Positions 26,564 to 63,920 of a stretch of 64,000 nucleotides of DNA are shown here, piece by piece (the stretch's first letter is position 1; each line of letters opens with the position of its first letter). The stretch is from a virus. Under the pieces are notes generated by a model. It had not been told where the DNA came from. It worked only from the letters and a program-made list of their open reading frames with translations, and searched no databases. The stretch spans positions 29,493 to 93,492 of IMG/VR virus record IMGVR_UViG_3300025892_000012; one strand, given 5' to 3'. The position numbers were made by a program, and so were the translations under genes.

Positions 26564-26839
26564 ATGGATTACACAATAACATTAACAGATACTGAAGACA
26601 AAGCACTGGCATATGCCGCTGCAAGTCAACAGGATTGGATTGATAACGTAGTTCACAATCGTTGTCGCATTGCAATTGATGACATTGTAAAACTTGCAAT
26701 AGACAAATTTATTGCTGCTGGTGAAAGCATGCCAGGAAATAAAGACCAAATTGTTGCAATTGCATTTGAAAGAGGTTGGGTCAAAACTGCAGCACAAAGA
26801 AATGAAGAAGCACAAGCCGAAATGGAGAAACAAGCATAA
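26564..26839 (+). CDS. Helical hypothetical protein, probable fibre-associated chaperone
   Basis: AAGGA RBS; QDWIDNVVHNRCRIAIDDIV...GWVKTAAQRN. Function inferred from context only. Confidence 0.55.
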   Translation: MDYTITLTDTEDKALAYAAASQQDWIDNVVHNRCRIAIDDIVKLAIDKFIAAGESMPGNKDQIVAIAFERGWVKTAAQRNEEAQAEMEKQA

Positions 26840-27324
26840 TGCCAGTTTTAGGAGCCGTAGCAAGACCTAATATCACTAGTTCATCAACAATCATAGATCA
26901 TAAAGAATATCTTGGTGGACATGCGGATATAATTTCAAATCCTGGCTATTATACTTTTTATGCACACTATACACCAGGAAATGTATCTGTCATAGTGCGT
27001 GGAATAAATATGGCGAGTAGTGACTATACGGCATCTAGTGGCAAAGATATTTTAATATCCACATCAGCAATAACATTAAACTCTGATGATATCATACAAA
27101 TTATCGGATATGGAACTAGCACTTCTGCCATATTAACCAAAAGCGATATGAACATCACTGGTGGACAGGCAATCAATCTAGAAAAAGTGGATAGTAAGAT
27201 TTATATGAATCGTAATCAGTATTCTGCAAATTTACATGTGCCCGCAGGATACAATGCATTCTTTGCTGGACCTATGAATTTTACAGGCACATTAACAATT
27301 GATGGCGTTTTAAACATAATTTAA
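26839..27324 (+). CDS. Socket connector with YIG-type N-terminus; paralog of the 55017 N-domain
   Basis: NPGYYTFY..Y.PGN.SV...SD.NITGG shared with 55017; ends YNAFFAGPMNFTGTLTIDGVLNII. Confidence 0.75.
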   Translation: MPVLGAVARPNITSSSTIIDHKEYLGGHADIISNPGYYTFYAHYTPGNVSVIVRGINMASSDYTASSGKDILISTSAITLNSDDIIQIIGYGTSTSAILTKSDMNITGGQAINLEKVDSKIYMNRNQYSANLHVPAGYNAFFAGPMNFTGTLTIDGVLNII

Positions 27325-27333
27325 AAAGAAGAT

Positions 27334-27912
27334 ATGAGTGGAGTTATAAAACTAGGTTCAACAACATTTGGCACAGAGAACAATGGCAAGATAGATTTGA
27401 CCAATGTTGGTGAAATCGCTTACAATAATCATCCTGCATTTTTTGCATGGTTAAGTACTCTTCAAAATAACTTTACTGATCAAACATATGTCAAAGTTGC
27501 GTATAATTCCATAGATATAGACACTCACAATTCTTTTGATACTACTTCTTTTGTTGGTAGATATACTATACCTGATGGTTGTAGTGGAACTTATCAAATA
27601 AGTGCTAGAGTTACTGGATGGGCAGTAACAGATACAAACCTAAGAGATGACCACTTATATTTAAGAAAAAATGGTTCTAATTATGAAGGTGTGGCGAATA
27701 GATGGGCAGGAAATGATATAGCACACCATTCTAATGTGCTAACAACAATTATAGATTTAAATGCTGGAGATTATTTAGAGATTTATTGTTTTATGAATTC
27801 AGTAAATAGTGCTGATAATAGAGTTTTATCAAAAATGGGTGACTACAACTTAAATAGTGGTTGGGAGGAAATATCAAGATTAACAACTTTTAGTGGATAT
27901 CGTATAAGGTAA
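27334..27912 (+). CDS. Receptor-binding tip, C1q/TNF-like domain
   Basis: Plug; HPAFFA...FDTT..GRYTIP..GTYQISA...LNAGDYLEIY...FSGYRI. Confidence 0.7.
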   Translation: MSGVIKLGSTTFGTENNGKIDLTNVGEIAYNNHPAFFAWLSTLQNNFTDQTYVKVAYNSIDIDTHNSFDTTSFVGRYTIPDGCSGTYQISARVTGWAVTDTNLRDDHLYLRKNGSNYEGVANRWAGNDIAHHSNVLTTIIDLNAGDYLEIYCFMNSVNSADNRVLSKMGDYNLNSGWEEISRLTTFSGYRIR

Positions 27913-27919
27913 TTAACTT

Positions 27920-28489
27920 ATGGCATCAGAAATACAATTAGGCGGTAAAACAATATTCACGCAAGATGGTAACAACATGCCAGAAATGCATACGAATGTT
28001 GTAATACCCGAAGCAACAAAAACAGCATTAGGATTAAATGCTATACCAGCAGGAACAACAGCAGAAAGACCAGGTACTCCTGCAGTTGGTATGATTCGTT
28101 ACAACACAGATTTTAAATGTATTGAATACTATGATACTAATAGTCTATCTGGTTCAACTTGGCACAGTGTAGGGCCTTTTGTTACTGTAAAATTTAATGG
28201 CTTTAATGGTTCTGTCATGAATTGGTGGGGTAATTATTCAAGTATAACGAGAAATGCAACAGGACATTATACATTAACTTTTGCAACAGCAGTTGGTGAT
28301 TATATGTGGTATATTGATACCGATACAAATAATTCAAGGAGTGGTAATCACGTAATGGGACTAAGTGGTTTTGGTAGTTATTATTTTGTTTATAATTCAA
28401 CTTATTTTACATTTACAATAGGTGATATTATTACACCAGCACGGTCAGATGCCGATATAGTTTGGGTTTCTCTATGGAGTATATCATGA
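27920..28489 (+). CDS. Receptor-binding tip
   Basis: Plug MASEIQLGGKTIFTQDG; PAGTTAERP..GMIRYNT spacer; VKFNG..SSITRNATGHYTLTF domain. Confidence 0.7.
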   Translation: MASEIQLGGKTIFTQDGNNMPEMHTNVVIPEATKTALGLNAIPAGTTAERPGTPAVGMIRYNTDFKCIEYYDTNSLSGSTWHSVGPFVTVKFNGFNGSVMNWWGNYSSITRNATGHYTLTFATAVGDYMWYIDTDTNNSRSGNHVMGLSGFGSYYFVYNSTYFTFTIGDIITPARSDADIVWVSLWSIS

Positions 28490-28905
28490 ATAATTTAATA
28501 CTTTACACAAATGCAGAAGGTTCAGTCTCTAGCATTTGTATCAATGGTGCAGAAGACATCACAAAAGTCAGAAAGTATATATTAGACCATAGTTTAAATG
28601 ATGCTATTATTATAGATGAAGCCGCACTACCAGAAAAAAAATTAGAGTATTGCAAAATAGTAAATGGTGAGTTAATATCAGATGAAGAATATAAAACAAA
28701 TAAAGCCATGCAATTGTTGCGAGAAGAAAGAGAAAAGTTATTGATTCAATCTGATTGGCGTGACCTTCCTTCTTATCCAGGTACAGACCAAGAAGCATGG
28801 CGAACATATAGACAGGATCTAAGAGACATGACTGAATTAGAATCTCCTAAAATAGATCAATATGGTAATCTAATTGAAGTAGTCTGGCCAACACCACCGG
28901 AGTAA
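28486..28905 (+). CDS. Tail assembly chaperone
   Basis: LREEREKLLIQSDW...YRQDLRDM...WPTPPE; ATG 28486 overlaps upstream stop. Confidence 0.8.
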   Translation: MNNLILYTNAEGSVSSICINGAEDITKVRKYILDHSLNDAIIIDEAALPEKKLEYCKIVNGELISDEEYKTNKAMQLLREEREKLLIQSDWRDLPSYPGTDQEAWRTYRQDLRDMTELESPKIDQYGNLIEVVWPTPPE

Positions 28906-28906
28906 A

Positions 28907-29137
28907 ATGGGAAACATTTCAATCATCAAAGGTTTTGATTCAGAAGGAATCAGACCAAGCAACGAAATAGTTGTAGACAAGAATGTAGTAGCTGAAGAAG
29001 GTTATTCACAATTGTTAATTGGTCCTGTTACTGTTCCCAATGTTACTGTAAATGGTAATCTAAACGTGATGACTGAAATAAATATTACTGGAGACTTAAC
29101 AATTGGTGAGAACGGTCAACTCAACATCATCGGATAA
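28907..29137 (+). CDS. Socket connector
   Basis: YSQLLIGPVTVPNVTVNGNLNV...GENGQLNIIG; close paralog of 32799. Confidence 0.7.
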   Translation: MGNISIIKGFDSEGIRPSNEIVVDKNVVAEEGYSQLLIGPVTVPNVTVNGNLNVMTEINITGDLTIGENGQLNIIG

Positions 29138-29142
29138 AACGA

Positions 29143-29667
29143 ATGGGTAATCTTGTATTAAATGGGCAGACAGTATTAGAGCAAGTCGGAACTGCTAAAC
29201 CTACAGTTGGTTCTGGTTGGCCTTCTGGTACAATTTGTGGATTTGAAAGATACATTACACCTATTACAAGTCATCAATCTAGTACTACCACATATCAAAC
29301 TATTACAGGAACACAAATAGATTATACACCAGTGACAGGTAGTACTTATGTATATTATAGTACAAGTTTTTTAATGACTGGAGAAGATAATAGTGCTTTA
29401 GGACATTTTAAACTATTATTAGATTACAATACAGTAAATGGAGCGGAGTTTACAATAAGGCAGGGAGTTTATTGGGCAGGAAATCTTATATATTTAGAAT
29501 GGATATTTGATTCATGGAGTGGTCCTAAAAATATATTATGTGAGTGTAGGGAGTATAATGCCTCATACACATTTAGATTACATCAAAATGTTAATTGGGA
29601 TGGAGCAAGTGATTCGGCAACTGGACCATATAAATCTCCAGTAACTAAAATATATTCTATAATGTGA
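29143..29667 (+). CDS. Receptor-binding tip
   Basis: Plug MGNLVLNGQTVLEQVG; WPSGTI in place of FPAGH. Confidence 0.7.
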   Translation: MGNLVLNGQTVLEQVGTAKPTVGSGWPSGTICGFERYITPITSHQSSTTTYQTITGTQIDYTPVTGSTYVYYSTSFLMTGEDNSALGHFKLLLDYNTVNGAEFTIRQGVYWAGNLIYLEWIFDSWSGPKNILCECREYNASYTFRLHQNVNWDGASDSATGPYKSPVTKIYSIM

Positions 29668-29674
29668 GAAACTA

Positions 29675-30274
29675 ATGGCAACACTTAAACTCAACAACAC
29701 AACAGTTTTTACAGAATCAAATGGTGCTGCGAGTATTCCAAGTGCGGTCAAGTTTCCTGCTGGACATGTTGTACAAGTTGTAGAATTACATGATGATAAT
29801 TATGTAACAATAAATGCTGCATCCATTAAATGTTATGATGTTCAAATTACAACCAAACAATCAAATTCAAAAATTTATGTGATAGCAAATTTAGGTCACA
29901 GTAACTATAATCATGATGTTGATAGAGCATTGGCAATGGGATATAAAGTTGGTGGGGTATCCACAAATTCTTCTGATTATATTGCTTTACAAAGTTCAAA
30001 ATATACTAGGCAAATAGAAGGAAATTTAGGTAGTTTTTGGACACAAGATACAGGAGACCCAGGTGGAGGAAGTTGGAGTGGAACTTACGGAATAAGTTCG
30101 GTGATGTTTACTAAACTACATGCTCCTAATGTTCCTAAAGATACACTATTATCATATTCGTTGTGGGGTTCTTCAGATGGTACATTCTACATTGGCACAT
30201 CCAATTCTACAGGAGGTGGAACACCTAATGGTTATGACAATAGTATTACTTTAATGGAGATTTCTAATGGTTAA
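29675..30274 (+). CDS. Receptor-binding tip, FPAGH family
   Basis: MATLKLNNTTVFTESNG...KFPAGHVVQ...SITLMEIS. Confidence 0.75.
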   Translation: MATLKLNNTTVFTESNGAASIPSAVKFPAGHVVQVVELHDDNYVTINAASIKCYDVQITTKQSNSKIYVIANLGHSNYNHDVDRALAMGYKVGGVSTNSSDYIALQSSKYTRQIEGNLGSFWTQDTGDPGGGSWSGTYGISSVMFTKLHAPNVPKDTLLSYSLWGSSDGTFYIGTSNSTGGGTPNGYDNSITLMEISNG

Positions 30275-30641
30275 GCCAAAACAAATAACCATCAATAATG
30301 CTATGGTAGAATATTATGGCAATTATAGTTGGGGAATGACTGGACCGAACTATACAGATATTATTTGGAAATCTAATCCTGATGAGAAACCAAGTTTAGA
30401 AGATTTAGAAGAAAAGGTAATACTGTTACAACAACAAGAACCATTAAGATTTTTGAGAGAAAAAAGAAACATTTTGTTAAAAGAAACAGATTGGAGAGCA
30501 ACAGTTGACTATCCTGGAACAGACCAAGAGGCATGGTTGACTTATAGACAGGCACTGAGGGATTTACCTGCAACAGCAGAACCAGAATTGGATGAAAACG
30601 GAATGCTTACAAACGTAACTTGGCCAGAGGAACCAGTATAA
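30267..30641 (+). CDS. Tail assembly chaperone
   Basis: LREKRNILLKETDW...YRQALRDLP...WPEEP. Confidence 0.85.
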   Translation: MVKPKQITINNAMVEYYGNYSWGMTGPNYTDIIWKSNPDEKPSLEDLEEKVILLQQQEPLRFLREKRNILLKETDWRATVDYPGTDQEAWLTYRQALRDLPATAEPELDENGMLTNVTWPEEPV

Positions 30642-31225
30642 TGGCAATACTAAAGTTAAACAGTCATGAAGTGATTACACAAAGTGGAGACAATCGTCCA
30701 GAGTTTGGTGCAAGTGTGCCTGCTGGTTGTATGTTACAACTTAAATCAACTACTAAAACCGACCATTGGGGTGGTTCTGGAGTTTCAAATGGAAATTCAG
30801 GTGTTACTCCATATGCTGTAACTGGATTATCTGTTACAATTACTCCAAAGTTTAATACAAGTAAAATATGGTTATTTGCTGATATTTTTATGGGATTAAA
30901 TAACTTTGAAGGATACAATTATTATTGGTCAATTTATAGAAGTATTAATGGAGGAACTAGTTCAGCAATTGGAGTAGGTACAGATAGTAGTGCAACATTT
31001 TTTGTTATGGGTGGTCATAATATGTATCCTTCTGGAAGTAGTATTCCTTTTGCGGGAGGTAATTCTAAAAATTATTTAGACAGTCCATCTACAATAGATA
31101 GTATAACTTATCAAATAAATGTAGGTGCTGCAGATTCAAATGCTATTTTATATGTTAATAGAAGAGCTAGTGGTGGCAATCCTTGTGGGGTATCAACAAT
31201 CACAGCAATGGAGATAGCAGCATAA
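30641..31225 (+). CDS. Receptor-binding tip, PAG family
   Basis: TAATG-coupled start MAILKLNSHEVITQSG; VPAGCMLQ; ITPKFNTSKI; STITAMEIAA. Confidence 0.75.
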   Translation: MAILKLNSHEVITQSGDNRPEFGASVPAGCMLQLKSTTKTDHWGGSGVSNGNSGVTPYAVTGLSVTITPKFNTSKIWLFADIFMGLNNFEGYNYYWSIYRSINGGTSSAIGVGTDSSATFFVMGGHNMYPSGSSIPFAGGNSKNYLDSPSTIDSITYQINVGAADSNAILYVNRRASGGNPCGVSTITAMEIAA

Positions 31226-31776
31226 TGGCAACTCTACAACTCGGAAACAAAACACTGTTTACACAATCTGGAAGTGCTGATCCGGAAATAACATCAAATG
31301 TAAATTTGACAAATGCAGATATGTCTAATGCAGATATGTCTAATGCAAATATTAAAACATCATTTAGTTCATTAGATACTTCTGCATCTCAAGGACCAAC
31401 AACAGATTTAACAAATACAACATTACCTATATTTGCTTGTAGAGCATGGGTACATTTTAACGGCATGTCATATGTTACTGTAGAAAGTGAATCTCATTGT
31501 GATATATATGCTTCTGGTAACGTAAGTAAAGTAGTAAGGGTTGGCGTTGGTTTGTATAAAATTTATTTTTTAACCCCAATGCCAGATACTAATTATTGTG
31601 TAACTGGTTCGCATGTTGCTTCAACCAATAGTTATGGTAATGTTGGTGGAATCGGAGGTTACAATGCTACGGCAGGGGGTATTGAAACAACTTATGTAGG
31701 AATAACATACCAATACCACTATAGTAGTTATGGTTTCGTTGACCAAGACCATTTACATATTGCTATTTTCAGATAA
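31225..31776 (+). CDS. Receptor-binding tip, 'RAWV.FNG...SGNVS' family
   Basis: TAATG-coupled start MATLQLGNKTLFTQSG; CRAWVHFNG..ASGNVSKV..G.Y...F..PMPDTNY. Confidence 0.75.
   Translation: MATLQLGNKTLFTQSGSADPEITSNVNLTNADMSNADMSNANIKTSFSSLDTSASQGPTTDLTNTTLPIFACRAWVHFNGMSYVTVESESHCDIYASGNVSKVVRVGVGLYKIYFLTPMPDTNYCVTGSHVASTNSYGNVGGIGGYNATAGGIETTYVGITYQYHYSSYGFVDQDHLHIAIFR
31312..31347 (+). repeat. 15-bp tandem repeat AATGCAGATATGTCT x2.4 (NADMS)
   Basis: Exact in-frame tandem duplication. Confidence 0.9.
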
Positions 31777-31786
31777 GGTATAAAAC

Positions 31787-32368
31787 ATGGCAACACTTAC
31801 GATTGGTGGAAAAACAGTAGTAACGCAGACAGGCACGGATGAGCCTATAATGACAAGTAATGTTGTGATGGATAATGTTAATGTGAACAATGCATTGGCA
31901 AGTGCTACGTTTCCTGCTGGACATATGTTAAGACATTTTTATGATGAATATAATTTTAATGGGTCTCCTGCTACAATCACAACAACCGCATCAAATTGGA
32001 GCGGTCTACAAATTGATATAATTAATCCTAATACAAGTAATTATTTATTTTTACAAATGTTTATTCCTGACGTATATTGTAGCGGTTCAAGTAATGGACT
32101 TGGAGGTGGTTTTGTTTATAGTACAAATTCTTTTAGTTCAGAATCAATTTTAGGTTCATCTGCTTGGTATTTTAATCAACATTCATGGACAAGTTCTGGT
32201 TCAAATTTAAATAATACTAGTTTGACTGTTAGAGTATTACATCCAACAAGTAGTAACTATTCAATAAGACCATATTTTCAGGCTTATAATGCAAGTTTAA
32301 GTATAGGACAAGGCAATAGTGGCAATAAGTCTATCGCAACATTATTTGCTATGGAGATACAAGGATGA
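31787..32368 (+). CDS. Receptor-binding tip, TFPAGH family
   Basis: MATLTIGGKTVVTQTG...ATFPAGH...LFAMEIQG. Confidence 0.75.
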   Translation: MATLTIGGKTVVTQTGTDEPIMTSNVVMDNVNVNNALASATFPAGHMLRHFYDEYNFNGSPATITTTASNWSGLQIDIINPNTSNYLFLQMFIPDVYCSGSSNGLGGGFVYSTNSFSSESILGSSAWYFNQHSWTSSGSNLNNTSLTVRVLHPTSSNYSIRPYFQAYNASLSIGQGNSGNKSIATLFAMEIQG

Positions 32369-32799
32369 AAACATATTTTGAAGTGGTTATAGATTTAGTA
32401 GGTATTGAAAATATTTGTAACGGACCATCCAATGGACCTGTATCTCAAATTAAATTTATAAATGGATTTGTAAACATACCCACTGAAGAAGAAATCCAAG
32501 CAAAGATAGCAGAACTTCAAGCAGCCGAACCACTACGTCTATTAAGAATAGAACGAAACCAAATTCTTCAACAATCTGATTGGGAAGTTCAACGCAATAC
32601 AGAACGCAACATTACAGATTCAAATCTAATAGACTATCGTAATGCACTCCGAGACCTTCCACAAGAAATAGCAAATGGAAACATTCCAGCACCTACACTG
32701 GATGAGAATGGAATGCTGGTGTTTGAACATTGGCCGAATCGCTATGAGATAAATATAGAAGATGAACCAACAGCAAACAATTCAGCTAATACAGTTTAA
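32365..32799 (+). CDS. Tail assembly chaperone with C-terminal extension
   Basis: AEPLRLLRIERNQILQQSDW...YRNALRDLP...FEHWP plus ~20 extra residues. Confidence 0.85.
   Translation: MKTYFEVVIDLVGIENICNGPSNGPVSQIKFINGFVNIPTEEEIQAKIAELQAAEPLRLLRIERNQILQQSDWEVQRNTERNITDSNLIDYRNALRDLPQEIANGNIPAPTLDENGMLVFEHWPNRYEINIEDEPTANNSANTV
32749..32755 (+). promoter_or_regulatory. Possible late promoter ATAAATA
   Basis: GATAAATATAG, identical to the element at 50482; ~45 bp before socket gene 32799. Confidence 0.4.
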
Positions 32800-33023
32800 T
32801 GCCGTCAAAAAGTAACGCCAAACAAAAATCAATTATAGTTGGTATTAACACAAAAACTTTTACCAATGATGTTGAAGTTGCTGAAAACTATTCTGCAATT
32901 CTCAGTGGTCCTGTAAGTGTACCAAACATCACTGTCAATGGTACTTTAAATGTGATCAACAATCTAAGTGTAGATGGTGATATTGTGATTGGTCCAAATG
33001 GTAATTTAAATCTAACAGGATGA
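32799..33023 (+). CDS. Socket connector
   Basis: YSAILSGPVSVPNITVNGTLNV...GPNGNLNLTG. Confidence 0.7.
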   Translation: MPSKSNAKQKSIIVGINTKTFTNDVEVAENYSAILSGPVSVPNITVNGTLNVINNLSVDGDIVIGPNGNLNLTG

Positions 33024-33024
33024 T

Positions 33025-33747
33025 ATGCCCAACGCAAGTTTGACAATAGATGGAACAGAAGTTATCAGCAAAGTAAATGGCTCAACTTCTATTCAAATTG
33101 ACACCGTAGAAAGTAATGATATAAAAAATGCACATGGAAATGTTGTTGGTTTTAGATCTGTTCAAATATTTGACACTGTTGGTACATCAACATGGACAAA
33201 GCCCGCTGGTGTAAATTATATAAAAGTTTATGTTACTGGCGGAGGAGGTGGCGGTGGTTCTCACAACCAAGATGATGCTCAAGGAGGTGGTGGAGCAGGG
33301 GGAACTACAATTAAATGGATTGATGTACGACAAGTAACAAGCGTATCTGTCACAGTTGGAGTTGGAGGTACACGTTCTATTGGTAATTCAGGAGGTGGTG
33401 GAGGTCCTGGAGGCACATCATCTTTTGGTTCGTATTGCTCTGCCACAGGTGGTGAAGAACCAGAAACTTGGGCAGTTGGTGGATATGGTGGTGTTGCTAC
33501 TGGAGGAGATATCAATTTGTATGGTAATGCAGGAATATGTGGCAACATAGATGGCGGTGGCAATGAAGAAAGTAGTGGAGTTGGAGGTGCTTCTTATTGG
33601 GGTGGAACAGGCAGAGGAGGTAGTGTTTGGGGTGCAAGGTCTAATCCAAATGGATGGGGATGTGGTGGTTCAGGCACCCATGTAAGCACTAATAATGAAG
33701 GTGCTGATGGATACAAAGGTGCTGTTATTGTAGAGGAATACGTATGA
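33025..33747 (+). CDS. Glycine-rich adhesin-like tip
   Basis: Plug MPNASLTIDGTEVIS; TWTKPAGVNYIKVYVTGGGGGGG...GGTSSFGSY...GAVIVEEY polyglycine domain. Confidence 0.75.
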   Translation: MPNASLTIDGTEVISKVNGSTSIQIDTVESNDIKNAHGNVVGFRSVQIFDTVGTSTWTKPAGVNYIKVYVTGGGGGGGSHNQDDAQGGGGAGGTTIKWIDVRQVTSVSVTVGVGGTRSIGNSGGGGGPGGTSSFGSYCSATGGEEPETWAVGGYGGVATGGDINLYGNAGICGNIDGGGNEESSGVGGASYWGGTGRGGSVWGARSNPNGWGCGGSGTHVSTNNEGADGYKGAVIVEEYV

Positions 33748-36871: not shown

Positions 36872-36879
36872 TTTAAGAC

Positions 36880-37454: not shown

Positions 37455-37456
37455 CT

Positions 37457-38110: not shown

Positions 38111-38123
38111 GATTTAACATAAC

Positions 38124-40806: not shown

Positions 40807-40810
40807 ATTA

Positions 40811-43894: not shown

Positions 43895-43907
43895 AAAGGA
43901 GTAAAAT

Positions 43908-44177: not shown

Positions 44178-44182
44178 AAAAC

Positions 44183-45437: not shown

Positions 45438-45444
45438 AGGTAAA

Positions 45445-45876: not shown

Positions 45877-45911
45877 TTGTATATAATATAAAACTTTCTT
45901 AACCAAAATAT

Positions 45912-56675: not shown

Positions 56676-57320
56676 ATGCCATTCATAGGAAATCAACCCA
56701 CACAAGAAAAAATACAAGACCATCGTTCATACACTGGTGATGGTGTTAGAACGGCATTTGGTGTTCAGTATGAAGGTGGTGCAGTACTTGTATTTCAAAA
56801 TGGTATAAAATTAAAAGAAACCGAAGATTATTTATTAAATGATATAGGCACATTTGTTACTTTTGTAGATGCGCCATTAGCAAATGATGTCATAGACCTA
56901 TATGGAACAAGTGAAATCACAGACCTATCACGTTCAACATATGCCAAAGAAACTTTCACTGCAGCAAAATATCAAACTAACTTTCAAGTACATAATCCAA
57001 TATCACCAACAGAACGTATCAATGTTTATGTAAATGGTTTAAGATTATCTGAAGTAGATTTTACAATTGATTATGTAAATAAAACTATTATTGTTCCGGA
57101 GAGAGACACAGATGATATTGTAATGGTTGAAGTGATCTCACCAGGCTTTAGAAGTTCTATGCATAATGCCAAAAATGAAAAGGCATATCATCCAATGTTC
57201 TCCACACCGGATGAGATAAATAGTGATATAGTAATACCAGAAGGAGAGAACGCAATGCTAGTTGGTCCCGTTACTCTGAATGGTGTAATCACTCTCAATG
57301 GAACACTCACCGTAGTATAA
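56676..57320 (+). CDS. Two-repeat scaffold with FIG N-terminus and socket C-terminus
   Basis: Paralog of the 34079 N-terminus; ends ENAMLVGPVTLNGVITLNGTLTVV. Confidence 0.8.
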   Translation: MPFIGNQPTQEKIQDHRSYTGDGVRTAFGVQYEGGAVLVFQNGIKLKETEDYLLNDIGTFVTFVDAPLANDVIDLYGTSEITDLSRSTYAKETFTAAKYQTNFQVHNPISPTERINVYVNGLRLSEVDFTIDYVNKTIIVPERDTDDIVMVEVISPGFRSSMHNAKNEKAYHPMFSTPDEINSDIVIPEGENAMLVGPVTLNGVITLNGTLTVV

Positions 57321-57327: not shown

Positions 57328-60300
57328 ATGGCAAGCATACTCAAAATTGATGTATTAGAACAAAGATACGCCAATTCAGGATTATATCTTTCTGGTAGGA
57401 TTCACGGTCCTCAGGGAGATATAATTAATAATGGTAGAGTTGTTCTTCCTGGAAACTTTGAAGCAAATACATTCAATGTTCTTGAAAGTCTAGATGCTAA
57501 TACAATAAATGCCAATACAATATTTCTCGGTGGAGTCAATGGTAAGCTTGAATTTGACGCAAACACTTCCACATTAAAAATCAATAATGCTTCCCTTGCA
57601 TTACAATCTGATGTCTCTACATTAATTGAAAATAGTTACACTAAGTTTACAGCAAATAGTTCAATTACAGCAGGAGATTTAGTAAGTTTATTAGATAATG
57701 GTAAAATTGAAAAGACAGCAGAAGCGAGTGTTAGAACTAACAGTGTTGGTGCTACTACAACATTTGATAGTAATGCTAGTGACAACATATATGTTCAATA
57801 TGATAAAACTTTAAACAAAGTACTTGTTTCATATGCGGTTGGAAGTTCCTCTGCTTGCTACGGTGTACTTGGAACGGTTAATGCTGACGGAAGTATAACA
57901 TTTGGAACACCACTTCAGATTACTTCTCAATATAATTTGATGACTGGTGCGATAGACCCCGTTCAAAATAGAGCAGTTTTTACATTTTTAGGTGATGTAT
58001 ATATTGCTGAAATTTCTGGTAACAATCTTATAAATTTACAATCTCCAATAACATTTGATAGTAGTACAGAAAATTATAATGCGACAATATATGACCCAAA
58101 TTCTGGTAAAATAATAATAGCATATTCAGATAGTGCGAGTCCTACAGGTAGAGCAGGTAATGTACTGGCGGTAACTGTTAATGGAAATTCAATTACATTT
58201 GGACAAACAACTGTTTTTGAGGCTTCCAATACAGAAACGATTTCTTTAAGTATAGATAATGATACAAATAAAATAATTATCGGATATTCATTAATAGGAT
58301 CATCCGCTAGATGTGTTATCGCAACTGTATCTGGAACAACAATAACAACAAGCTCACCTGCCGTTGCCTCTCCAGGTACAGCAGATTTTGTAAAATTTAC
58401 TTATGCTTCAAATGGCATAGTTGTTGCTGCTTTCCGTGATAATACTAATAGTAACTATGGTGCATATTCTATAGGACAGATATCTGGCAACTCAATAACA
58501 TTTGGAAGTTCTGTTGTTTTCAATTCTGCAACTTCCGTACCAATAGGTTTGAGTTATGATAATGTAAATGAGAGAATTTCAATTTCATACAATGATTTTG
58601 GAAACAGTAATTATGGTACAGTAAAATCCGGTATAATTGAAAACGGAGCTATAACATTTGAAGCTACAGATATATTCAATAGCAGTGCTACATATGAAGT
58701 TTTTAGTGTAGTTGATACCACATACAATAGAATTTTAATAGGATTTAAAAATGGTGCTACTGGTCCTGGTAGAATAAATGTATATTCAACGTTTGGAACC
58801 GAATATAAAGATAACGTAGATAATTATATTGGAATAGCAAAGGATTCAATTGCTGCTACTCAGGAAGGTTCTGTATTCATAATTGGAGACATTGCTGATA
58901 ATCAAACAAGTCTCACAGAAAATCAAATTTATTATGTTGATAAAACAGGAAGCCTAACCACATCCAAAACAGAATATAGTATTGTAGGTAGAGCGGTATC
59001 AAATACGTCAATACAATTACTTGACAATAAACCAACATTACTTACTGATTTAAATATTATAGATGGAACTAATTCACAAGTATTGACAACATATGGTAAT
59101 GGTTCTTTTTATTTTGCCGCAGCTAGTGACCCTATAGCAGTATCCAAAACTAATACTACAAATGCCATTCTATCAACAGTTACAAATGTAAATGATTTTA
59201 GATTTGATAGTGATAGTGGTTTTGATGTTGTTGATTTAGGAGCAGGTGCAGTAAAGATTCAAATGAATTCAACTTTCAAAACATTGAAAGTTTCTGGTCA
59301 GAGTGATTTAGTAGCAACTGGTTTAGATACATTAGAGTTAATAGGTTCTGGAATAACAATTACAACAGATGCTGTAGCTAATCCTAAAACACTCACATTT
59401 ACTGGTGCCAGCACTCTTACTGATTTGGGAATAACTGATGGTAGTGCAAATCAAGTATTAATTACAGACGGTTTAGGAAACTATTCTTTTGCTAATGCTG
59501 CTTCGGGAGGCGCAAGCACACTAACAGATTTAGGCATAGCTGATGGTGAATCAGACCAAGTGCTTACAACAGATGGAAATGGTAGTTTCTTCTTTGGACA
59601 TTCATTATCTATATTAAATCAAGATTTGATTGATGGTGGAGAAATTACAGAATTGCGTGATTGTCGTACAGTTATTGATTTAGGTAGTGTAGATACAAGA
59701 TTGGGATATGCCGTACCTGAAGGTAGTAAAACTATTCTTTTAGCAAATGATTCTACAATTGTTTCTTCTACAAATGATATAATTATATCAGAAACAAATG
59801 GATTTGCAAAATTAGAAAATGTCACTATAGATTTAAGTGGAAAAACGGATGCAATTATAGTTCCAAAAGGTACAACAGCACAAAGACCTAGTTCACCTAT
59901 TGCTGGAATGATTCGTTATAACACAGAATTAGACCAGTATGAATTATATGATGAAACAACAACAGCTTGGGGAAAACTTGGAGATCAACCACCTACAATT
60001 TCCAGTATTTCTCCTGCCACAACAGAAACTGTTTCAGGTACAACACAATTTACTGTGGTCGGCACTAATTTTGAATCCACAGGAATGACAACTCAATTTG
60101 TGAGTACGGTAGATAGTACCGCTGTAAATAGAACTGCATTTATTTTTGATAATAGTGGTCAAATTAGAATCACCTTTGATAACACAGATTTTGATGCCGC
60201 AAAAGAACCTTACAATTTAATTGTTACAAAATCCAGTGGTTTAAGTGTTACTAAACTAAATGCATTATATGTAGATGAAGCTCCTGTTTGGTCACTTACA

Positions 60301-61269
60301 AGCACAAATATTGCTACTATTTTACCACAAGCAATTACAAATGTCAATATAGATTTACCTACAGCAACAGACCCTGAAGGAGATATAGTAACTTATAGTG
60401 GGAGTAATTTACCTAGCGGTTTAAGTATTGATGCAAACACTGGTGATTTGAGTGGTAGTGTTCCTGCAGCAAATACAGAAATAGAATATACAGTTACTAT
60501 AAATGCACAAAGCACTGGTAGTGACCCGGGTGCAACACAAAAAACCACAACAAGACAACCCACAATCATTGTGAAACCTGTGATTGAAAATTCCTTGATG
60601 TTTGATGGGAGCAGCTATTTAAGTAAAAGCACAAGTGATAACAGCACCAATTCAAGTATTAAGACTTGGTCTTTTTGGGTTAAAAGATCAGTTCTAGGAA
60701 CAAACTTTTATATGACCGGAGGATTCAAATCGGGGAACTCAAATACTTTTGATATCTACTTTCATACTGATGATACTTTTAGTGTCCAGTGGGGTGGCAG
60801 TTCTGCATTACTTAACAGATCCAGTGCGGTATTTAGAGATACATCTGCGTGGTATCATATATTGGTGCATAAAAACAGCACTTCACAAAGTTTTTACATT
60901 AATGGCAGTTTGGTTAGTTTAGCAACAACTAACACAACTTCGTCATCAGTGGCATTTGCTGAAAACGGGATGTCTGTCTCTGGTAATTATGGCAGTTTCA
61001 TTGGTGGAGGTGGATTTGGAGGAAGCAATAACATAATTGGCTACCTCGCCAACATCCATTTCATAGACGGACAAGCATTGACCCCAACATCATTCGGTGA
61101 AAGTATAAATGGTATCTGGTTGCCGAAAGTTTACAATCCAACAGGTAATGCACTAACAGATTACGGTACAAATGGTTTCCACCTTACATTTGCACCAAGC
61201 ACAATTAGCGGCACAACTGTACAAGATATTTCTGGTAGAGGAAATGATTGGACAGCAAATGGTTTTTAA
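57328..61269 (+). CDS. Large fibre: plug, propeller-like domain, spacers, Ig-like domains, LamG/ConA-like C-terminal domain
   Basis: MASILKID plug; region homologous to the 34079 C-half; PKGTTAQRP; ATDPEGD..LPSGLSID Ig; SLMFDGSSYL..TWSFWVKRS..FRDTSAWYHI..GYLANIHFIDGQAL. Confidence 0.8.
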   Translation: MASILKIDVLEQRYANSGLYLSGRIHGPQGDIINNGRVVLPGNFEANTFNVLESLDANTINANTIFLGGVNGKLEFDANTSTLKINNASLALQSDVSTLIENSYTKFTANSSITAGDLVSLLDNGKIEKTAEASVRTNSVGATTTFDSNASDNIYVQYDKTLNKVLVSYAVGSSSACYGVLGTVNADGSITFGTPLQITSQYNLMTGAIDPVQNRAVFTFLGDVYIAEISGNNLINLQSPITFDSSTENYNATIYDPNSGKIIIAYSDSASPTGRAGNVLAVTVNGNSITFGQTTVFEASNTETISLSIDNDTNKIIIGYSLIGSSARCVIATVSGTTITTSSPAVASPGTADFVKFTYASNGIVVAAFRDNTNSNYGAYSIGQISGNSITFGSSVVFNSATSVPIGLSYDNVNERISISYNDFGNSNYGTVKSGIIENGAITFEATDIFNSSATYEVFSVVDTTYNRILIGFKNGATGPGRINVYSTFGTEYKDNVDNYIGIAKDSIAATQEGSVFIIGDIADNQTSLTENQIYYVDKTGSLTTSKTEYSIVGRAVSNTSIQLLDNKPTLLTDLNIIDGTNSQVLTTYGNGSFYFAAASDPIAVSKTNTTNAILSTVTNVNDFRFDSDSGFDVVDLGAGAVKIQMNSTFKTLKVSGQSDLVATGLDTLELIGSGITITTDAVANPKTLTFTGASTLTDLGITDGSANQVLITDGLGNYSFANAASGGASTLTDLGIADGESDQVLTTDGNGSFFFGHSLSILNQDLIDGGEITELRDCRTVIDLGSVDTRLGYAVPEGSKTILLANDSTIVSSTNDIIISETNGFAKLENVTIDLSGKTDAIIVPKGTTAQRPSSPIAGMIRYNTELDQYELYDETTTAWGKLGDQPPTISSISPATTETVSGTTQFTVVGTNFESTGMTTQFVSTVDSTAVNRTAFIFDNSGQIRITFDNTDFDAAKEPYNLIVTKSSGLSVTKLNALYVDEAPVWSLTSTNIATILPQAITNVNIDLPTATDPEGDIVTYSGSNLPSGLSIDANTGDLSGSVPAANTEIEYTVTINAQSTGSDPGATQKTTTRQPTIIVKPVIENSLMFDGSSYLSKSTSDNSTNSSIKTWSFWVKRSVLGTNFYMTGGFKSGNSNTFDIYFHTDDTFSVQWGGSSALLNRSSAVFRDTSAWYHILVHKNSTSQSFYINGSLVSLATTNTTSSSVAFAENGMSVSGNYGSFIGGGGFGGSNNIIGYLANIHFIDGQALTPTSFGESINGIWLPKVYNPTGNALTDYGTNGFHLTFAPSTISGTTVQDISGRGNDWTANGF

Positions 61270-61283: not shown

Positions 61284-63137
61284 ATGGCAGTTATAGATCA
61301 CGTTTTTCCTGATTCACCAACGAATACTTTTGCTACGCTTAATGTTTTAGATGCAGAATCTGCTACACTTAGTAATGGCAATTTAGCCGCAACAATAAAT
61401 GCTGGGCCAAACAACTCAACAACAATAATTCCGTCATCCGGTACATGGTATTGGGAAGTTTACATAACTGACCACACAAACATTTATATGGGAATTCAAA
61501 AGATAGAAACTCAAGAAAGCGGATATTCTCAAGATGCAGTGGCAGTTAATAATGTTGGAAATGTCTATTATGATGCTAGTTACCAAAATAAAGATGCACT
61601 GCCTTCAATTGCAACCGGAGATATTATTTCTGTTTTTTGGGATATAGATAATAAAAAAATTTGGTTTGCTCAAAATGGTCAATTTTATGATGCGACAGGA
61701 ACAACTCATCCCACTTTAACACTTTCCCAAGTAGCCAGTGGTGTGAACGGATATGATTATAGTTCTAATATTCCAAATAGTGCTAAACCTTTCTTTGGTA
61801 GTTCAGCGACTTCTGCAGGAATTATTTGTAATTTCGGTCAAGACAGTTCTTTTGGCGGAAATAAAACTAGCGGATCAGCTAATGCTACTGATTCTGGTGG
61901 TATAGGAGACTTTTATCATTCAGTACCAACGGGTGCAAAAGCATTATGCACATCAAATATTCAAAGTAACTTAGCTATAGATCCAGCAGTGGATGATTTG
62001 CCGGAAGACTACTTTAAATGTGTAAAATATAACGGTGTTAGCACTGGTGGGGGTAATTTTGCTGTGCCAGTAGGTTTCCAAAGTGATTTAATTTGGATTA
62101 AAAGACGAAATAACGGTAATTCGCATAATCTTTTTGATTCTGTCAGAGGATTTGATAAGTGGATAATATCAGATTTTTCGGGGGCCGAAAGGAATAACAC
62201 TTCTAACAATAGTGGTAATTCTAAAATATCAACAGTCAATAGCAGTGGGTTTACAGTACACGATAATCATAATGCGGAAGTCAATGACGGTACTGCTGGG
62301 TCAGCTAGTCAATATATCAGTTGGAATTGGAAAGCCGGTGGTGCGCCAAGTGGATCAAACATCTATATGAAGAATGATGTAGGATATACTAGTTCAACGT
62401 CAGATAAAGCAACTGTATTTGGTAACGCTAGTAACTATACGATTACTCCAGCATCAGCAAGTATTAATACAAAAGCGGGTTTTAGTATAATTAAGTATCT
62501 TTCTCCAGACGATTCGGGAGGAGCAGTTTCTACTGCTACTGTGCCGCACGGTCTTAGCGCTGCACCAGATTTTATAATTTGCAAGAATTTAGACACTTCA
62601 TACAACTGGGATATTTATCATAGCAGTGTTAATTATTCTGGAATTTTTACAACTGCAGCGATTAACTCAAGAAACGCATTCGGCACAATTAACTCTAATA
62701 TTTTTACAACTAAAGACACATTTACGCATCATGATGATGATGAGTACATAGCATATTGTTTTACAAGTATTCCCGGCTACTCCGCATTTGGTTCGTATAC
62801 TGGTACTAATCATCAAGATAAAGGTTATCGTTCATTAGATTTTAAGCCTAGTTTCATTTTGATTAAAGATGTAACTTCGAGTGGTAATTGGGCTATGTTT
62901 GATAATCAAAGAGGCCCGATTAATCCAATAGATCATTGTTTATTAGCTGATTCTGCTGCTGTTGAAACTACCAGCACTACTAGTAGTGGTCAAAATCAAA
63001 TCGACTTTTTAAGCAACGGGTTTTTTATTCGTTGCGATAATGCGAATAGCAAAATGGGGAATGTAACCGGAAATACTTACCTCTACGCAGCCTTTGCGGA
63101 AATGCCCTTCAAATACTCAGCAACGAACGCCAGGTAA
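61284..63137 (+). CDS. SPRY-like plus repeat-domain virion protein
   Basis: DSPTNTFATLN..SNGNL; SGTWYWEV; GDIISVFWDIDNKKIWF; VGFQSDLIWIKRR; HGLSAAPDFII; YLYAAFAE.PFKY. Confidence 0.75.
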   Translation: MAVIDHVFPDSPTNTFATLNVLDAESATLSNGNLAATINAGPNNSTTIIPSSGTWYWEVYITDHTNIYMGIQKIETQESGYSQDAVAVNNVGNVYYDASYQNKDALPSIATGDIISVFWDIDNKKIWFAQNGQFYDATGTTHPTLTLSQVASGVNGYDYSSNIPNSAKPFFGSSATSAGIICNFGQDSSFGGNKTSGSANATDSGGIGDFYHSVPTGAKALCTSNIQSNLAIDPAVDDLPEDYFKCVKYNGVSTGGGNFAVPVGFQSDLIWIKRRNNGNSHNLFDSVRGFDKWIISDFSGAERNNTSNNSGNSKISTVNSSGFTVHDNHNAEVNDGTAGSASQYISWNWKAGGAPSGSNIYMKNDVGYTSSTSDKATVFGNASNYTITPASASINTKAGFSIIKYLSPDDSGGAVSTATVPHGLSAAPDFIICKNLDTSYNWDIYHSSVNYSGIFTTAAINSRNAFGTINSNIFTTKDTFTHHDDDEYIAYCFTSIPGYSAFGSYTGTNHQDKGYRSLDFKPSFILIKDVTSSGNWAMFDNQRGPINPIDHCLLADSAAVETTSTTSSGQNQIDFLSNGFFIRCDNANSKMGNVTGNTYLYAAFAEMPFKYSATNAR

Positions 63138-63163
63138 TTATAATTATCAATGGAGAAAACAAT

Positions 63164-63375
63164 ATGGCAGAACAATTGAAATTGAAAACACAATTTTTGA
63201 AAACACAAACTTTTTTACAGCAGTAAATAAAGTTATAAATCATGATGAAGTTTCTATTGCCGATGCATATAGAATAAATAAGATCATTAAAAAAACTTAA
63301 AGAATTCAAGATGGAATTTTGGTCGCTGATATCAACAAACTAGAATTAATATTTGATTTTTCTAACATAGAATAA
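63164..63375 (+). pseudogene. Frameshifted remnant of a small fibre-associated gene
   Basis: GGAG RBS plus ATG 63164 is one base out of frame with TIEIENTIFEN...AYRINKIIKK; stop at 63298-63300 after an A-run; protein-like QDGILVADINKLELIFDF resumes. Confidence 0.5.
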
Positions 63376-63380
63376 AATAA

Positions 63381-63920
63381 ATGCCAGAAGTTATAAAATT
63401 TTCCAAAGGTACTGTAGCAGAACACAATAACTTTACGGGAGAGAATGGTGAAATCACATTGATTTGTGATGATAGCCCGAATCGTAAAGTTACTGGCATC
63501 ATACGTTTACATGACGGTCAGACTGTTGGTGGTGTTCCTTTTGGTGGTAGTCAATTGCTAAATGATTTACATGATGTAAATACTGCTAGTGCTACACTTG
63601 GTACTGTATTAACTGCTGGTGCTAATGACACGTTTTATTTTAATTCAGTAGTAACTAATCTAGCTGGATTGACTGATGTAATTTCTGCTAACACTGCAGC
63701 AAATGGTACAATACTTACAGCAGATGGTAATGGTGGTTTTAAGTTTGATACAATAGCAAAAGGTGGTGGAAACAATCAAGTGTTTTTTGAAAATGATACA
63801 ACAATCACAGATGATTATACAATCTCAGCAGGTAAGAATGCAATGACTGCTGGACCAATAACAATCGCAAACAATGCAACTGTAGTTATACCAGTTGGTT
63901 CAACTTGGACAATAGTGTAA
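63381..63920 (+). CDS. Socket connector with Mtd-N-type N-terminus
   Basis: KGTVAEHNNFTGENGEI..IRLHDGQTVGG (paralog of 54307); ends NAMTAGPITIANNATVVIPVGSTWTIV. Confidence 0.75.
   Translation: MPEVIKFSKGTVAEHNNFTGENGEITLICDDSPNRKVTGIIRLHDGQTVGGVPFGGSQLLNDLHDVNTASATLGTVLTAGANDTFYFNSVVTNLAGLTDVISANTAANGTILTADGNGGFKFDTIAKGGGNNQVFFENDTTITDDYTISAGKNAMTAGPITIANNATVVIPVGSTWTIV

What the first reader, a model, noticed from the sequence alone, without database searches (positions are those of the whole stretch)
26839..63920. Three fused-versus-split pairs show the socket/plug junction replacing a covalent link
(a) 34079 has N-terminal repeats plus a propeller region in one ORF. The same parts occur as 56676 (repeats + socket) and 57328 (plug + FTAN..IT.GD...NYIGIAKDS...GDIADNQT.LT.NQ.YY...GRAVS.TSIQLL region). 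(b) 55017 has the NPGYYTFY domain fused to a fibre, while 26839 has the same domain ending in a socket. 55017 even keeps an internal plug-like NNVISESGGVVTLA (cf. 25601 NTTVMTESGGNVTLA). (c) 54307 is an Mtd-N-type domain fused to a tip; 63381 is the same domain ending in a socket. This is internal Rosetta-stone evidence that socket+plug is a linker.
Basis: partly seen in the sequence, partly recalled or inferred. Interest (0 to 1): 0.8.

Follow-up and report, generated by a model that had tools for sequence, protein, structure and literature searches.

The report
Fused versus split phage tail-fibre joints
A marine T4-like phage encodes the same tail-fibre parts both as single long proteins and as pairs of neighbouring proteins, one ending in a small conserved "socket" and the next starting with a "plug", which suggests but does not prove a widespread, unnamed snap-on joint for host-binding tips.

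Summary
All three pairs align far above chance (BLASTP E 1e-12 to 4e-50), but they are not equally good pairs.

- **Pair (a)** is a true Rosetta stone. 34079 carries anchor, repeats and propeller in one chain. The adjacent genes 56676 (anchor, repeat, socket) and 57328 (plug, propeller) carry the same parts in the same order.
- **Pair (b)** is composite. Fused 55017 shares its anchor with 26839 and its tip with 40811, which is not adjacent. It has lost the socket core but keeps the plug internally.
- **Pair (c)** shares only a 49-residue Mtd_N domain.

Wider evidence favours a joint.
- All 10 sockets in the window are followed within 20 nt by a plug gene.
- The socket profile finds 5,492 protein clusters. 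In 145 of the top 150 it sits at the extreme C-terminus.
- In 79 of 80 unrelated viral contigs it ends at a stop codon, usually followed by a plug-like start.
- Prochlorococcus phage P-SSP7 gp17 ends in this socket and is followed by four plug-bearing tips.
- The tips model as TNF/C1q-like knobs.

No Pfam family, solved structure or paper I found covers the socket. Binding itself was not shown. The scan has noted similar plug-and-socket kits in at least 41 other genomes.

Verdict: a real feature and a new variant of a known kind, the non-covalent fibre joint.

The parts
34079..36871 (+). Fused fibre protein (930 aa). N-terminal MPFIG anchor plus Y..NG.RL..DY repeats (1-340), LSDL..NQVLTADG motif (343-381), propeller-like region (385-885), second NQVL motif (887-915). 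No socket.
   Evidence: BLASTP to 56676 and 57328. Sequence. No socket HMM hit. Atlas structure neighbours at TM 0.71-0.78, one of those clusters with an SGL propeller family on 22% of members.
56676..57320 (+). Split partner 1 (214 aa): the same anchor, one repeat, and a socket at residues 152-214 (window 57129-57317).
   Evidence: 47% identity to 34079[1-165]. Socket HMM 93.5 bits, ending at the last residue. Orthologues in L008-L015 keep the split form.
57328..61269 (+). Split partner 2 (1313 aa), starting 7 nt after the stop of 56676. Plug region 1-102 (MASILKIDVLEQ...), propeller-like region 103-597 homologous to 34079, NQVL motifs, an internal plug-like stretch at about 815-840, He_PIG Ig domain, distal part 763-1311.
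   Evidence: Residues 763-1311 are 38% identical (E 5e-98) to a 632-aa Mtd_N-fused fibre of the same phage, L019:3219-5114.
55017..56492 (+). Fused fibre (491 aa): NPGYYTFY anchor domain (1-~115), internal plug-like segment (131-155, window 55407-55481), FRNKIING-type tip (156-491). No socket.
   Evidence: PHROG tail fiber families phrog_4492 and phrog_25042 on the tip.
26839..27324 (+). Split form of the same anchor (161 aa), ending in a socket at residues 97-161 (window 27127-27321).
   Evidence: 47% identity to 55017[1-133]. Socket HMM 72.8 bits, C-terminal.
27334..27912 (+). Plug-bearing tip (192 aa, MSGVIKLGSTTFGTENNG...) starting 9 nt after the socket gene 26839.
40811..41830 (+). Plug plus FRNKIING tip (339 aa): the plug-bearing homologue of the tip that is fused in 55017.
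   Evidence: 40811[1-245] matches 55017[131-385], 30% identity, E 1e-21.
54307..55002 (+). Mtd_N domain (residues 6-54) fused to a tip (231 aa).
   Evidence: Pfam PF18454 E 9.4e-8, 32.3 bits. PDB 1YU0 Mtd E 0.0048.
63381..63920 (+). Mtd_N-type domain (5-53), NQVL-type motifs, then a socket at residues 117-179 (window 63729-63917). The next gene lies beyond the window. In contig G001, the same phage continued past the window's end, it is a plug tip (MAESILKTDEIR..., 207 aa) starting 1 nt after the stop.
50528..52243 (+). A further anchor-repeats-socket protein (50528-51643) directly followed by a plug tip (51644-52243).
24088..46732 (+). Six mini socket proteins of 74-96 aa (24088, 25309, 28907, 32799, 37176, 45912). 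Each is followed within 20 nt by a plug tip (24363, 25601, 29143, 33025, 37457, 46139). Eleven further plug tips and the Tfa-like chaperones lie in between and up to 53534.
   Evidence: Chaperone PHROG hits phrog_4912 and phrog_4628.

Best explanation
The window is the tail-fibre arsenal of an uncultured marine T4-like myovirus. Its fibres are built from exchangeable modules:
- N-terminal anchors (the MPFIG repeat type, the NPGYYTFY type, the Mtd_N type);
- shaft spacers;
- trimeric TNF/C1q-like knobs or other tips.

Two neighbouring modules can be joined covalently in one polypeptide. Alternatively they can be joined non-covalently, through a roughly 45-60-residue C-terminal beta-rich cap (the socket, consensus N..T..Y.I..G.NA..AGPIT...G..V.V..GS.WT[IV]V-stop) on the proximal protein and a roughly 20-residue N-terminal beta-hairpin (the plug, M-x-[ILV]-x-[ILV]-x-G/N...T/S-E/Q-S-G) on the protein encoded immediately downstream.

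The three fused proteins 34079, 55017 and 54307 carry the same anchors without a socket. Their split counterparts (56676 with 57328, 26839, 63381) carry the socket, and the next gene starts with a plug.

What is shown:
- the homologies;
- the absence of sockets in the fused forms;
- the strict C-terminal position of the socket;
- the conserved socket-to-plug gene order in many unrelated phages, including P-SSP7;
- the knob fold of the tips, from a model.

What is inferred:
- that plug and socket bind each other, probably as trimer on trimer;
- that several alternative tips compete for, or share, one socket, giving a multi-specificity fibre set;
- that fused and split forms interconvert by recombination at module borders rather than by one fusion or fission event.
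For: - **Pair homologies.** E 1e-12 to 4e-50.
- **Sockets in the window.** The fused proteins have none, and the window has exactly 10, all terminal.
- **Gene order in the window.** 10 of 10 sockets are followed by a plug gene at -1 to +20 nt. The tenth case was seen in the contig that extends the window.
- **Spread and position of the socket.** The socket profile against 1.84 billion representatives gives 5,492 clusters at E<=1e-3 and 277 at E<=1e-10. In 145 of the top 150 the socket lies within 3 residues of the C-terminus of proteins 70-1131 aa long. The 5 exceptions are unrelated DUF11-like repeat proteins.
- **Unrelated viral contigs.** In 79 of 80 IMG/VR loci the match ends exactly at a stop, and the next gene mostly starts within -16 to +12 nt with a plug-like strand. 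A plug pattern fits 35 of 58 unique downstream genes against 34 of 249 control ORFs, Fisher p 1.5e-12. The controls are contaminated by second and third tips.
- **Co-variation.** Over 50 unique pairs the last 25 aa of the socket and the first 20 aa of the plug co-vary more than any other pair of segments (Mantel rho 0.275, p 5e-4). The shaft 70-130 aa upstream in the same protein is uncorrelated.
- **P-SSP7.** Tail fibre gp17 ends in the socket. Three nucleotides later the first of four 191-213-aa 'tail fiber' proteins begins; all four have plug-like N-termini and the same ..MEVAA-type end as the window's tips.
- **Models.** The AF2 socket model is confident over its last 40 residues (pLDDT 91-96). 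In the AF2 tip model the plug forms three short strands in front of a jelly roll. That jelly roll matches the trimeric Pgp3 C-terminal domain, BclA, C1q and TNF folds and phage knobs (Foldseek E 1.9e-5, TM 0.52).
- **Conserved module border.** Distant homologues of tip 38124 share only the first ~20% (plug plus FPAGH) at 68-88% identity.
- **Experimental precedent.** In Klebsiella phages a covalent link can stand in for a non-covalent RBP joint (PMC8262889).
Against: - No direct evidence of binding was obtained.
- Only pair (a) is a strict fused/split pair. (b) is composite and (c) shares only the anchor.
- Fused 55017 keeps the plug, and 57328 has an internal plug-like stretch. The plug is therefore also an ordinary shaft element, not only a docking peptide.
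- Plug tips outnumber sockets: 20 against 10 in the window, 4 against 1 in P-SSP7. The stoichiometry is unexplained.
- In relatives L009, L013 and L014 the same anchors end in a coiled coil instead of a socket, yet one of them is followed by a plug-like N-terminus. The plug may therefore not need this socket specifically.
- The co-variation signal is not clearly stronger than that between adjacent segments of one protein (bootstrap 39% and 6%). Physical linkage on the DNA could explain it.
- Modules are heavily shuffled, which weakens Rosetta-stone reasoning in general.
Confidence: 0.6

Rival explanations
1. Cassette linkage without docking. The socket is a C-terminal capping, trimerisation or folding-nucleus domain of the proximal fibre. 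The plug is the usual N-terminal shaft start of independent small fibres that attach somewhere else (baseplate, another part of the fibre, or another connector). The conserved gene order and co-variation reflect only tight linkage and translational coupling within tail-fibre cassettes, and the fused/split pairs reflect ordinary module shuffling.
For: - Modules are promiscuous and reshuffled.
- Plug-like segments occur inside continuous fibres.
- Tips outnumber sockets.
- Coiled-coil ends replace sockets in relatives.
- The co-variation cannot be told apart from linkage.
Against: - In the part of the P-SSP7 genome I examined, the four tips have no other recognisable attachment domain, and only gp17 carries the T7-type tail anchor.
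- The socket is the best conserved part of otherwise unrelated proteins and is strictly terminal.
- The mini proteins are little more than a socket with a short N-terminal adaptor, which makes sense for a connector but not for a cap.
- Pair (a) keeps the same proximal-to-distal order in the fused and split forms.
Confidence: 0.25
2. The socket is a C-terminal intramolecular chaperone, like the peptidase S74 domains of endosialidases and T5 pb1, that helps trimerisation and is then removed.
For: It sits at the extreme C-terminus of proteins that are probably trimeric fibres, and it is highly conserved.
Against: - It is only ~45-60 residues long.
- Pfam found no Peptidase_S74 or any other family on socket proteins.
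- No sequence relative has a solved structure.
- Proteins of 74-96 aa consist almost entirely of it.
- Dedicated Tfa-like chaperone genes are already present next to the tips.
Confidence: 0.05
3. The similarities are chance or low-complexity matches between Ser/Thr/Asn/Gly-rich fibre sequences, so there are no real fused/split pairs.
For: The composition is biased. The short internal plug match of 55017 to 25601 is only marginal on its own (38 of 1000 shuffles).
Against: E-values run from 1e-12 to 4e-50 over 49 to 541 aligned columns at 34-51% identity. Orthologues in other contigs keep the same domains.
Confidence: 0.01

Closest known systems
T4 long tail fibre joints (gp34-gp35-gp36-gp37)
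   Same: A fibre assembled from separately encoded proteins joined end to end without covalent bonds. The genes are adjacent and in assembly order, and the phage here is T4-like. The T4 gp36 N-terminus (MADLKVGSTTGG) resembles the plug (MADLILGNTT, MATLKLNNTT). The assembly order of the T4 fibre is from my own knowledge.
   Different: Pfam Phage_T4_gp36 matched T4 gp36 itself but none of the nine window proteins scanned. The plug HMM scores only 5.8 bits on gp36 residues 1-10, and the socket HMM finds nothing in gp34-gp37. Here a single joint type is reused ten times in one genome with many alternative distal partners.
Branched and anchored receptor-binding proteins of Klebsiella podoviruses (KP32 gp37/gp38, K11, KP34 anchor protein)
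   Same: A first RBP anchored to the tail carries a second RBP that lacks its own anchor. KP34 uses a separate intermediate anchor protein. Domains that naturally lack an anchor still gave infective phage when fused covalently to the K11 anchor, so covalent and non-covalent links are interchangeable (PMC8262889).
   Different: No sequence relation was detected. The docking element here is a terminal ~50-residue cap, not an internal branching domain, and the partners are TNF-like knobs, not depolymerase spikes. That the Klebsiella branching domain is T4 gp10-like is from my own knowledge and from earlier scan notes; I did not test it.
Prochlorococcus phage P-SSP7 tail fibre gp17 and ORFs 037-041
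   Same: gp17 ends in the same socket (56% identity to 63381's socket). It is followed 3 nt later by the first of four tips with plug-like N-termini, which belong to the same family as the window's tips.
   Different: It is a T7-like podovirus with one socket. The distal fibre is still unresolved in published cryo-EM, which models only the N-terminal 117 aa (bioRxiv 10.64898/2026.08.19.745834; the related phage P-SCSP1u likewise, PMC10575957). No joint has been described there.
Bordetella phage BPP-1 Mtd (Pfam Mtd_N, PDB 1YU0)
   Same: 54307 carries an Mtd_N domain above the Pfam threshold and matches 1YU0 over residues 5-167. This N-terminal domain is the shared anchor of pair (c).
   Different: No diversity-generating retroelement was looked for. 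In this phage the domain precedes a tip, a socket, a long fibre or, in relatives, a coiled coil.
Chain-like fibres of podophages A1002, GP4 and VP1
   Same: Many small fibre subunits dock by beta-sheet augmentation on a separately encoded scaffold protein (PMC13730344). This is a precedent for several tips per docking protein.
   Different: Those subunits are dimers docked along a 'rope'. No sequence relation was tested or seen.

Membership tests
Pfam Mtd_N (PF18454) | HMM score above the gathering threshold (26.3 bits) | tested here: met
   54307 scores 32.3 bits, E 9.4e-8, and matches PDB 1YU0 at E 0.0048. 63381 scores only 17.6 bits, below the threshold, but aligns to 54307 at E 1e-12.
T4 long-tail-fibre connector proteins (gp35, gp36) | Sequence homology to gp36 (Pfam Phage_T4_gp36) or gp35 | tested here: not met
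   No such Pfam hit on the nine window proteins scanned. Plug HMM on the gp36 N-terminus: 5.8 bits over 10 residues. Socket HMM on gp34-gp37: nothing.
T4 long-tail-fibre connector proteins (gp35, gp36) | Non-covalent end-to-end joining of separately encoded fibre proteins | not testable with these tools
   Only indirect evidence: gene order, terminal position and co-variation.
Anchor/branching dual-RBP systems (KP32 type) | A recognisable internal branching domain on the first RBP | tested here: not met
   Pfam found no family on 56676 or 26839, and only a sub-threshold Mtd_N match on 63381. Eight database socket proteins gave only sub-threshold BppL_N matches and one PTR repeat. The conserved element is terminal, not internal.
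Peptidase S74 intramolecular chaperone domain | Pfam Peptidase_S74 match at the C-terminus | tested here: not met
   No hit. The socket is only ~45-60 aa.
TNF/C1q-like trimeric jelly-roll knobs (for the plug-bearing tips) | Jelly-roll fold matching solved trimeric TNF/C1q-like domains | tested here: met
   AF2 model of 38124 (pTM 0.68). Foldseek hits: Pgp3 C-terminal domain E 1.9e-5, prob 1.0, TM 0.52; also BclA, EDA-A1, C1q-like, Sf6 knob and the cyanophage A-1(L) short-fibre CBD. The trimeric state itself was not tested.
Left-handed beta-helix / beta-solenoid (for the socket) | Structural match to solved beta-helix proteins | tested here: inconclusive
   Foldseek found no match at E<=1e-3. 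Best VIA-align Z 2.1-2.4, among them pieces of hexapeptide acyltransferases and of the IcsA autochaperone. Weak VioB sequence hint at E 6.4.
Tail fibre assembly chaperones (Tfa-like), for the genes between the tips | Match to phage tail fibre assembly families | tested here: met
   30267 hits phrog_4912 (E 1.3e-14), phrog_4628, phrog_4697 and phrog_8746.

The most novel reading that the evidence does not exclude
The socket, a strictly C-terminal ~50-residue beta cap, and the plug, an N-terminal beta-hairpin, form a portable and so far undescribed trimer-to-trimer connector. Thousands of aquatic phage lineages of both T4-like and T7-like build, including the model cyanophage P-SSP7, would use it to mount several alternative TNF-like receptor-binding knobs on one shaft. 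Evolution would switch freely between this joint and a covalent link. On this reading the distal fibre of P-SSP7, still unresolved, is a gp17-socket plus a choice of four tips.
Probability: 0.5. Interest if true: 0.75.

Novelty: new variant of a known kind. Interest (0 to 1): 0.55.

Why it matters
If the joint is real, several things follow.
- Thousands of short "hypothetical" genes next to phage tail-fibre genes get an explanation.
- The unresolved distal tail fibre of P-SSP7 and of many abundant ocean phages gets a concrete, testable model.
- One virion could display several receptor specificities, which bears on host range in the sea.
- It would offer a compact natural connector for swapping receptor-binding tips in phage engineering.

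The fused and split pairs mark where the module borders lie.

Tried and rejected
- **Complex prediction**. Three copies of the 56676 socket (65 aa) with three copies of 57328(1-110), each with its own alignment, gave ipSAE 0.01. That is no verdict, and I count it neither for nor against binding.
The genomic context of the database socket proteins therefore came from the search for related loci instead.
- **Cultured-phage searches.** Megablast of 54307-63920 and tblastn of 56676 against cultured phages found nothing.
- **Relatives of 34079.** The search for related loci found none, so the direction of change (fusion or fission) for pair (a) could not be rooted.
- **Fold of the socket model.** Foldseek found nothing at E<=1e-3. 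VIA-align reached only Z 2.1-2.4 on beta-helix fragments. The fold is not identified.
- **Sequence searches of solved structures.** The socket profile, 56676 and 55017 gave nothing significant.
- **Giant multi-hit proteins.** P0001, P0002, P0003, P0019 and P0059 were checked as possible covalent socket chains and rejected. P0003, read in full, is a roughly 100-aa DUF11-like Ig repeat; the other four show the same kind of periodic partial matches.
- **Recoding.** Frameshifting or readthrough across the socket stop was considered and rejected, because the gaps and frames differ from pair to pair (-1 to +20 nt).
- **Plug HMM.** An HMM built only from the window's plugs separates distant plugs poorly, although the enrichment is significant.

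Full report
**Context.** The window is the last 64 kb of a 93.5-kb IMG/VR viral contig. The 29 kb upstream carries large ORFs whose N-termini I read, from my own knowledge of T4, as terminase, sheath, portal, prohead protease and capsid genes in T4-like order. Only the capsid call was checked. That protein is 56% identical to the capsid protein of Synechococcus myophage S-CAM9 and 55% identical to that of the Methylophilales phage Melnitz. This is therefore an uncultured marine T4-like myovirus of unknown host. From about 24 kb to the end, every gene lies on the + strand and belongs to a tail-fibre array.

**The observation.** All-against-all BLASTP confirms the three pairs.

- (a) 34079[1-165] matches 56676[1-159] at 47% identity, E 2.5e-42. 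34079[385-915] matches 57328[103-597] at 34% over 541 columns, E 4e-50.
- (b) 55017[1-133] matches 26839[1-134] at 47%, E 7e-37.
- (c) 54307[6-54] matches 63381[5-53] at 51%, E 1e-12. The shared piece is an Mtd_N domain. Pfam PF18454 scores 32.3 bits on 54307, and PDB 1YU0 matches at E 0.0048.

A socket HMM finds exactly ten sockets in the window, all C-terminal, and none in 34079, 55017 or 54307.

**How good each pair is.**

Pair (a) is a genuine fused/split pair. The anchor and the propeller-like region occur in the same order in one chain and in two adjacent genes separated by 7 nt. The split pair has extra material that the fused protein lacks: the socket (56676 residues ~160-214) and the plug region (57328 residues 1-102). 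In their place the fused protein has two more repeats and an LSDL..NQVLTADG spacer motif. It does not have a simple linker there.

Pair (b) is composite. The tip of 55017 is the FRNKIING type. Its plug-bearing homologue is 40811, and the alignment begins at residue 1 of 40811 and residue 131 of 55017 (E 1e-21). So the fused protein keeps the plug as an internal segment and lacks only the ~25-residue socket core. The gene that actually follows 26839 is a different tip, 27334.

Pair (c) shares only the anchor. The tip of 54307 has no plug-bearing homologue in any sequence compared.

I found a fourth pair beyond the window. 57328[763-1311] is 38% identical (E 5e-98) to a 632-aa protein of the same phage in which that distal part follows an Mtd_N domain directly.

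**Is socket followed by plug a rule?** In the window each of the ten sockets is followed, at -1 to +20 nt, by a gene that begins with the plug. For 63381 this was checked in a contig of the same phage that extends past the window's end: a 207-aa tip beginning MAESILKTDEIR starts 1 nt after the stop. Eleven further plug-bearing tips follow these pairs, interleaved with Tfa-like chaperones.

The rule holds outside this phage as well.

- The socket profile finds 5,492 clusters at E<=1e-3 among 1.84 billion representatives.
- In 145 of the top 150 the socket lies within three residues of the C-terminus of proteins 70-1131 aa long. The five exceptions are unrelated DUF11-like repeat proteins.
- A scan of IMG/VR gave at least 589 confirmed occurrences. 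In 79 of the 80 loci kept, the match ends exactly at a stop codon. The next gene usually starts within a few nucleotides with a plug-like strand such as MAITINGSGT, MSIRIDGTNT, MASIKIQSS or MSTLKVN.
- A simple plug pattern fits 35 of 58 unique downstream genes against 34 of 249 other ORFs (p 1.5e-12). Many of those control matches are themselves second or third tips.
- Over 50 unique pairs, the last 25 residues of the socket and the first 20 of the plug co-vary more than any other pair of segments (Mantel rho 0.275, p 5e-4). The shaft 70-130 residues upstream in the same protein is uncorrelated with the socket.

The junction thus behaves as one block that crosses a gene boundary. This agrees with co-adaptation, but simple linkage could also produce it.

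**A model phage carries it.** The T7-like tail fibre gp17 of Prochlorococcus phage P-SSP7 ends in this socket. Three nucleotides later the first of four 191-213-aa proteins begins. All four are annotated 'tail fiber protein', start with plug-like strands (MPITLNGSGTVSG, MSQLKLTADSGGG, MATLNATNLKH, MSRIIVDAIRN) and end like the window's tips. S-SBP1, S-T4 and S-CAM7, together with Lentibacter, Methylophilales and Vibrio phages, also have the socket. Published cryo-EM of P-SSP7 and of P-SCSP1u resolves only the N-terminal part of the fibre. The distal joint has therefore not been seen.

**Structure.** AlphaFold2 with a 65-row alignment models the last 40 residues of the socket with pLDDT 91-96 as six short strands. 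No solved fold matches it clearly; the best hits have Z about 2 on beta-helix fragments. No Pfam family or solved sequence covers it. The tip 38124 models (pTM 0.68) as three short N-terminal strands, which are the plug, followed by a jelly roll. That jelly roll matches the trimeric Pgp3 C-terminal domain, BclA, C1q and TNF folds and phage knobs. This supports trimeric tips. Homologues of this tip often share only the first ~20% (plug plus FPAGH motif) at 68-88% identity, so the plug is the conserved handle of a variable head.

**Fusion or fission?** Neither in a simple sense. At the position syntenic with 55017, a 91%-related phage has the same anchor fused to a different tip, and three others have it ending in a coiled coil. 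The Mtd_N anchor occurs with a tip, a socket, a long fibre, a coiled coil or another ending. In L008 the protein after the 56676 orthologue is a different mosaic without the propeller. The ends are replaced repeatedly by recombination at module borders.

**Interpretation.** Binding is inferred, not shown.

The main rival (about 0.25) is that the socket only caps the proximal fibre and the gene order reflects cassette linkage. Several facts remain unexplained:
- there are more plugs than sockets;
- the plug also occurs inside continuous fibres;
- some relatives have coiled-coil ends in place of sockets.

An experimental precedent exists in Klebsiella phages, where RBP domains that naturally dock non-covalently still work when fused to an anchor (PMC8262889).

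**Earlier notes of this scan.** They describe similar plug-and-socket kits in at least 41 other genomes. They are unchecked leads, not independent support. They pointed me to the KP32 comparison.

**Verdict.** The finding is real. Non-covalent fibre joints and module shuffling are known in principle. This particular connector family appears undescribed, and it is widespread.

Noticed in passing
L019:3219-5114, L019:9164-9463, L019:12160-12477 (contig G001, the same phage beyond the window's end): There are three more Mtd_N paralogues. One is a 632-aa protein in which Mtd_N is fused to the distal half of 57328. One is a 100-aa Mtd_N plus socket, followed at a 1-nt gap by a plug tip. One is a 106-aa Mtd_N with an internal plug-like NNIISESNGSVNI that ends ..SIALGG.
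   Followed up: partly
window 36862-37179 and 23747-24091; L019:12484-12804: This looks like a second junction type. Proteins ending ..SIALG(G) (34079, and L019:12160-12477) are followed by a 99-114-aa protein (36880, MATFKRK...; L019 MAEAFKRK...). In the window a mini socket protein then follows. The small protein 23747, which precedes mini socket 24088, looks similar. Together this suggests a multi-level chain of connectors.
   Followed up: no
L009:3845-4066 and 5586-5999; L013:3495-3722 and 5578-5985: In related phages the Mtd_N and NPGYYTFY-type anchors end in a short coiled coil (..LQNRVTALEGS, ..LEDQVATLTGS) instead of a socket. The Mtd_N version is followed at 1 nt (L013) or 42 nt (L009) by a fibre starting MAGVLIVDEIQ. 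This may be a third connector type.
   Followed up: no
window 42060, 44183, 44805, 48020, 49222, 24088: Another recurrent N-terminus, M(S/T)KAR.I..FA.., heads several tips and at least one mini socket protein. It may be a separate docking peptide whose partner is unknown.
   Followed up: no
window 35105-35221, 36737-36823, 59400-59640, 63540-63770; L008:6880-7250: A ~30-residue spacer motif, L(S/T)D(L/V)..V......NQVLT.DG.GNF.F, recurs in many fibres. It is repeated four times in tandem in the L008 plug protein. No Pfam family matched it.
   Followed up: partly
window 38124-38726 and its database homologues P0162-P0168: Homologues share only the first ~20% (plug plus FPAGH motif) at 68-88% identity and diverge completely after it. 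This points to a sharp recombination border just behind the plug.
   Followed up: partly
window 33025-33747: One plug-bearing tip has long glycine runs (GGGGGGG, GGGGAGG, GGGGGPGG), unlike the jelly-roll tips. A similar Gly-rich protein begins at L019:12806.
   Followed up: no
window 61284-63137 and L019:5124-9143: A SPRY plus DUF7483 protein (Pfam E 6.8e-70) follows the long fibre 57328. A 1340-aa paralogue follows the Mtd_N-fused fibre in the same way, so the two genes seem to travel as a pair.
   Followed up: no
window 25309-25599: This mini protein has a plug-like N-terminal stretch (GTLKLNDTLFATENSG) as well as a socket. It could act as an extension piece between a socket and another plug.
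   Followed up: no
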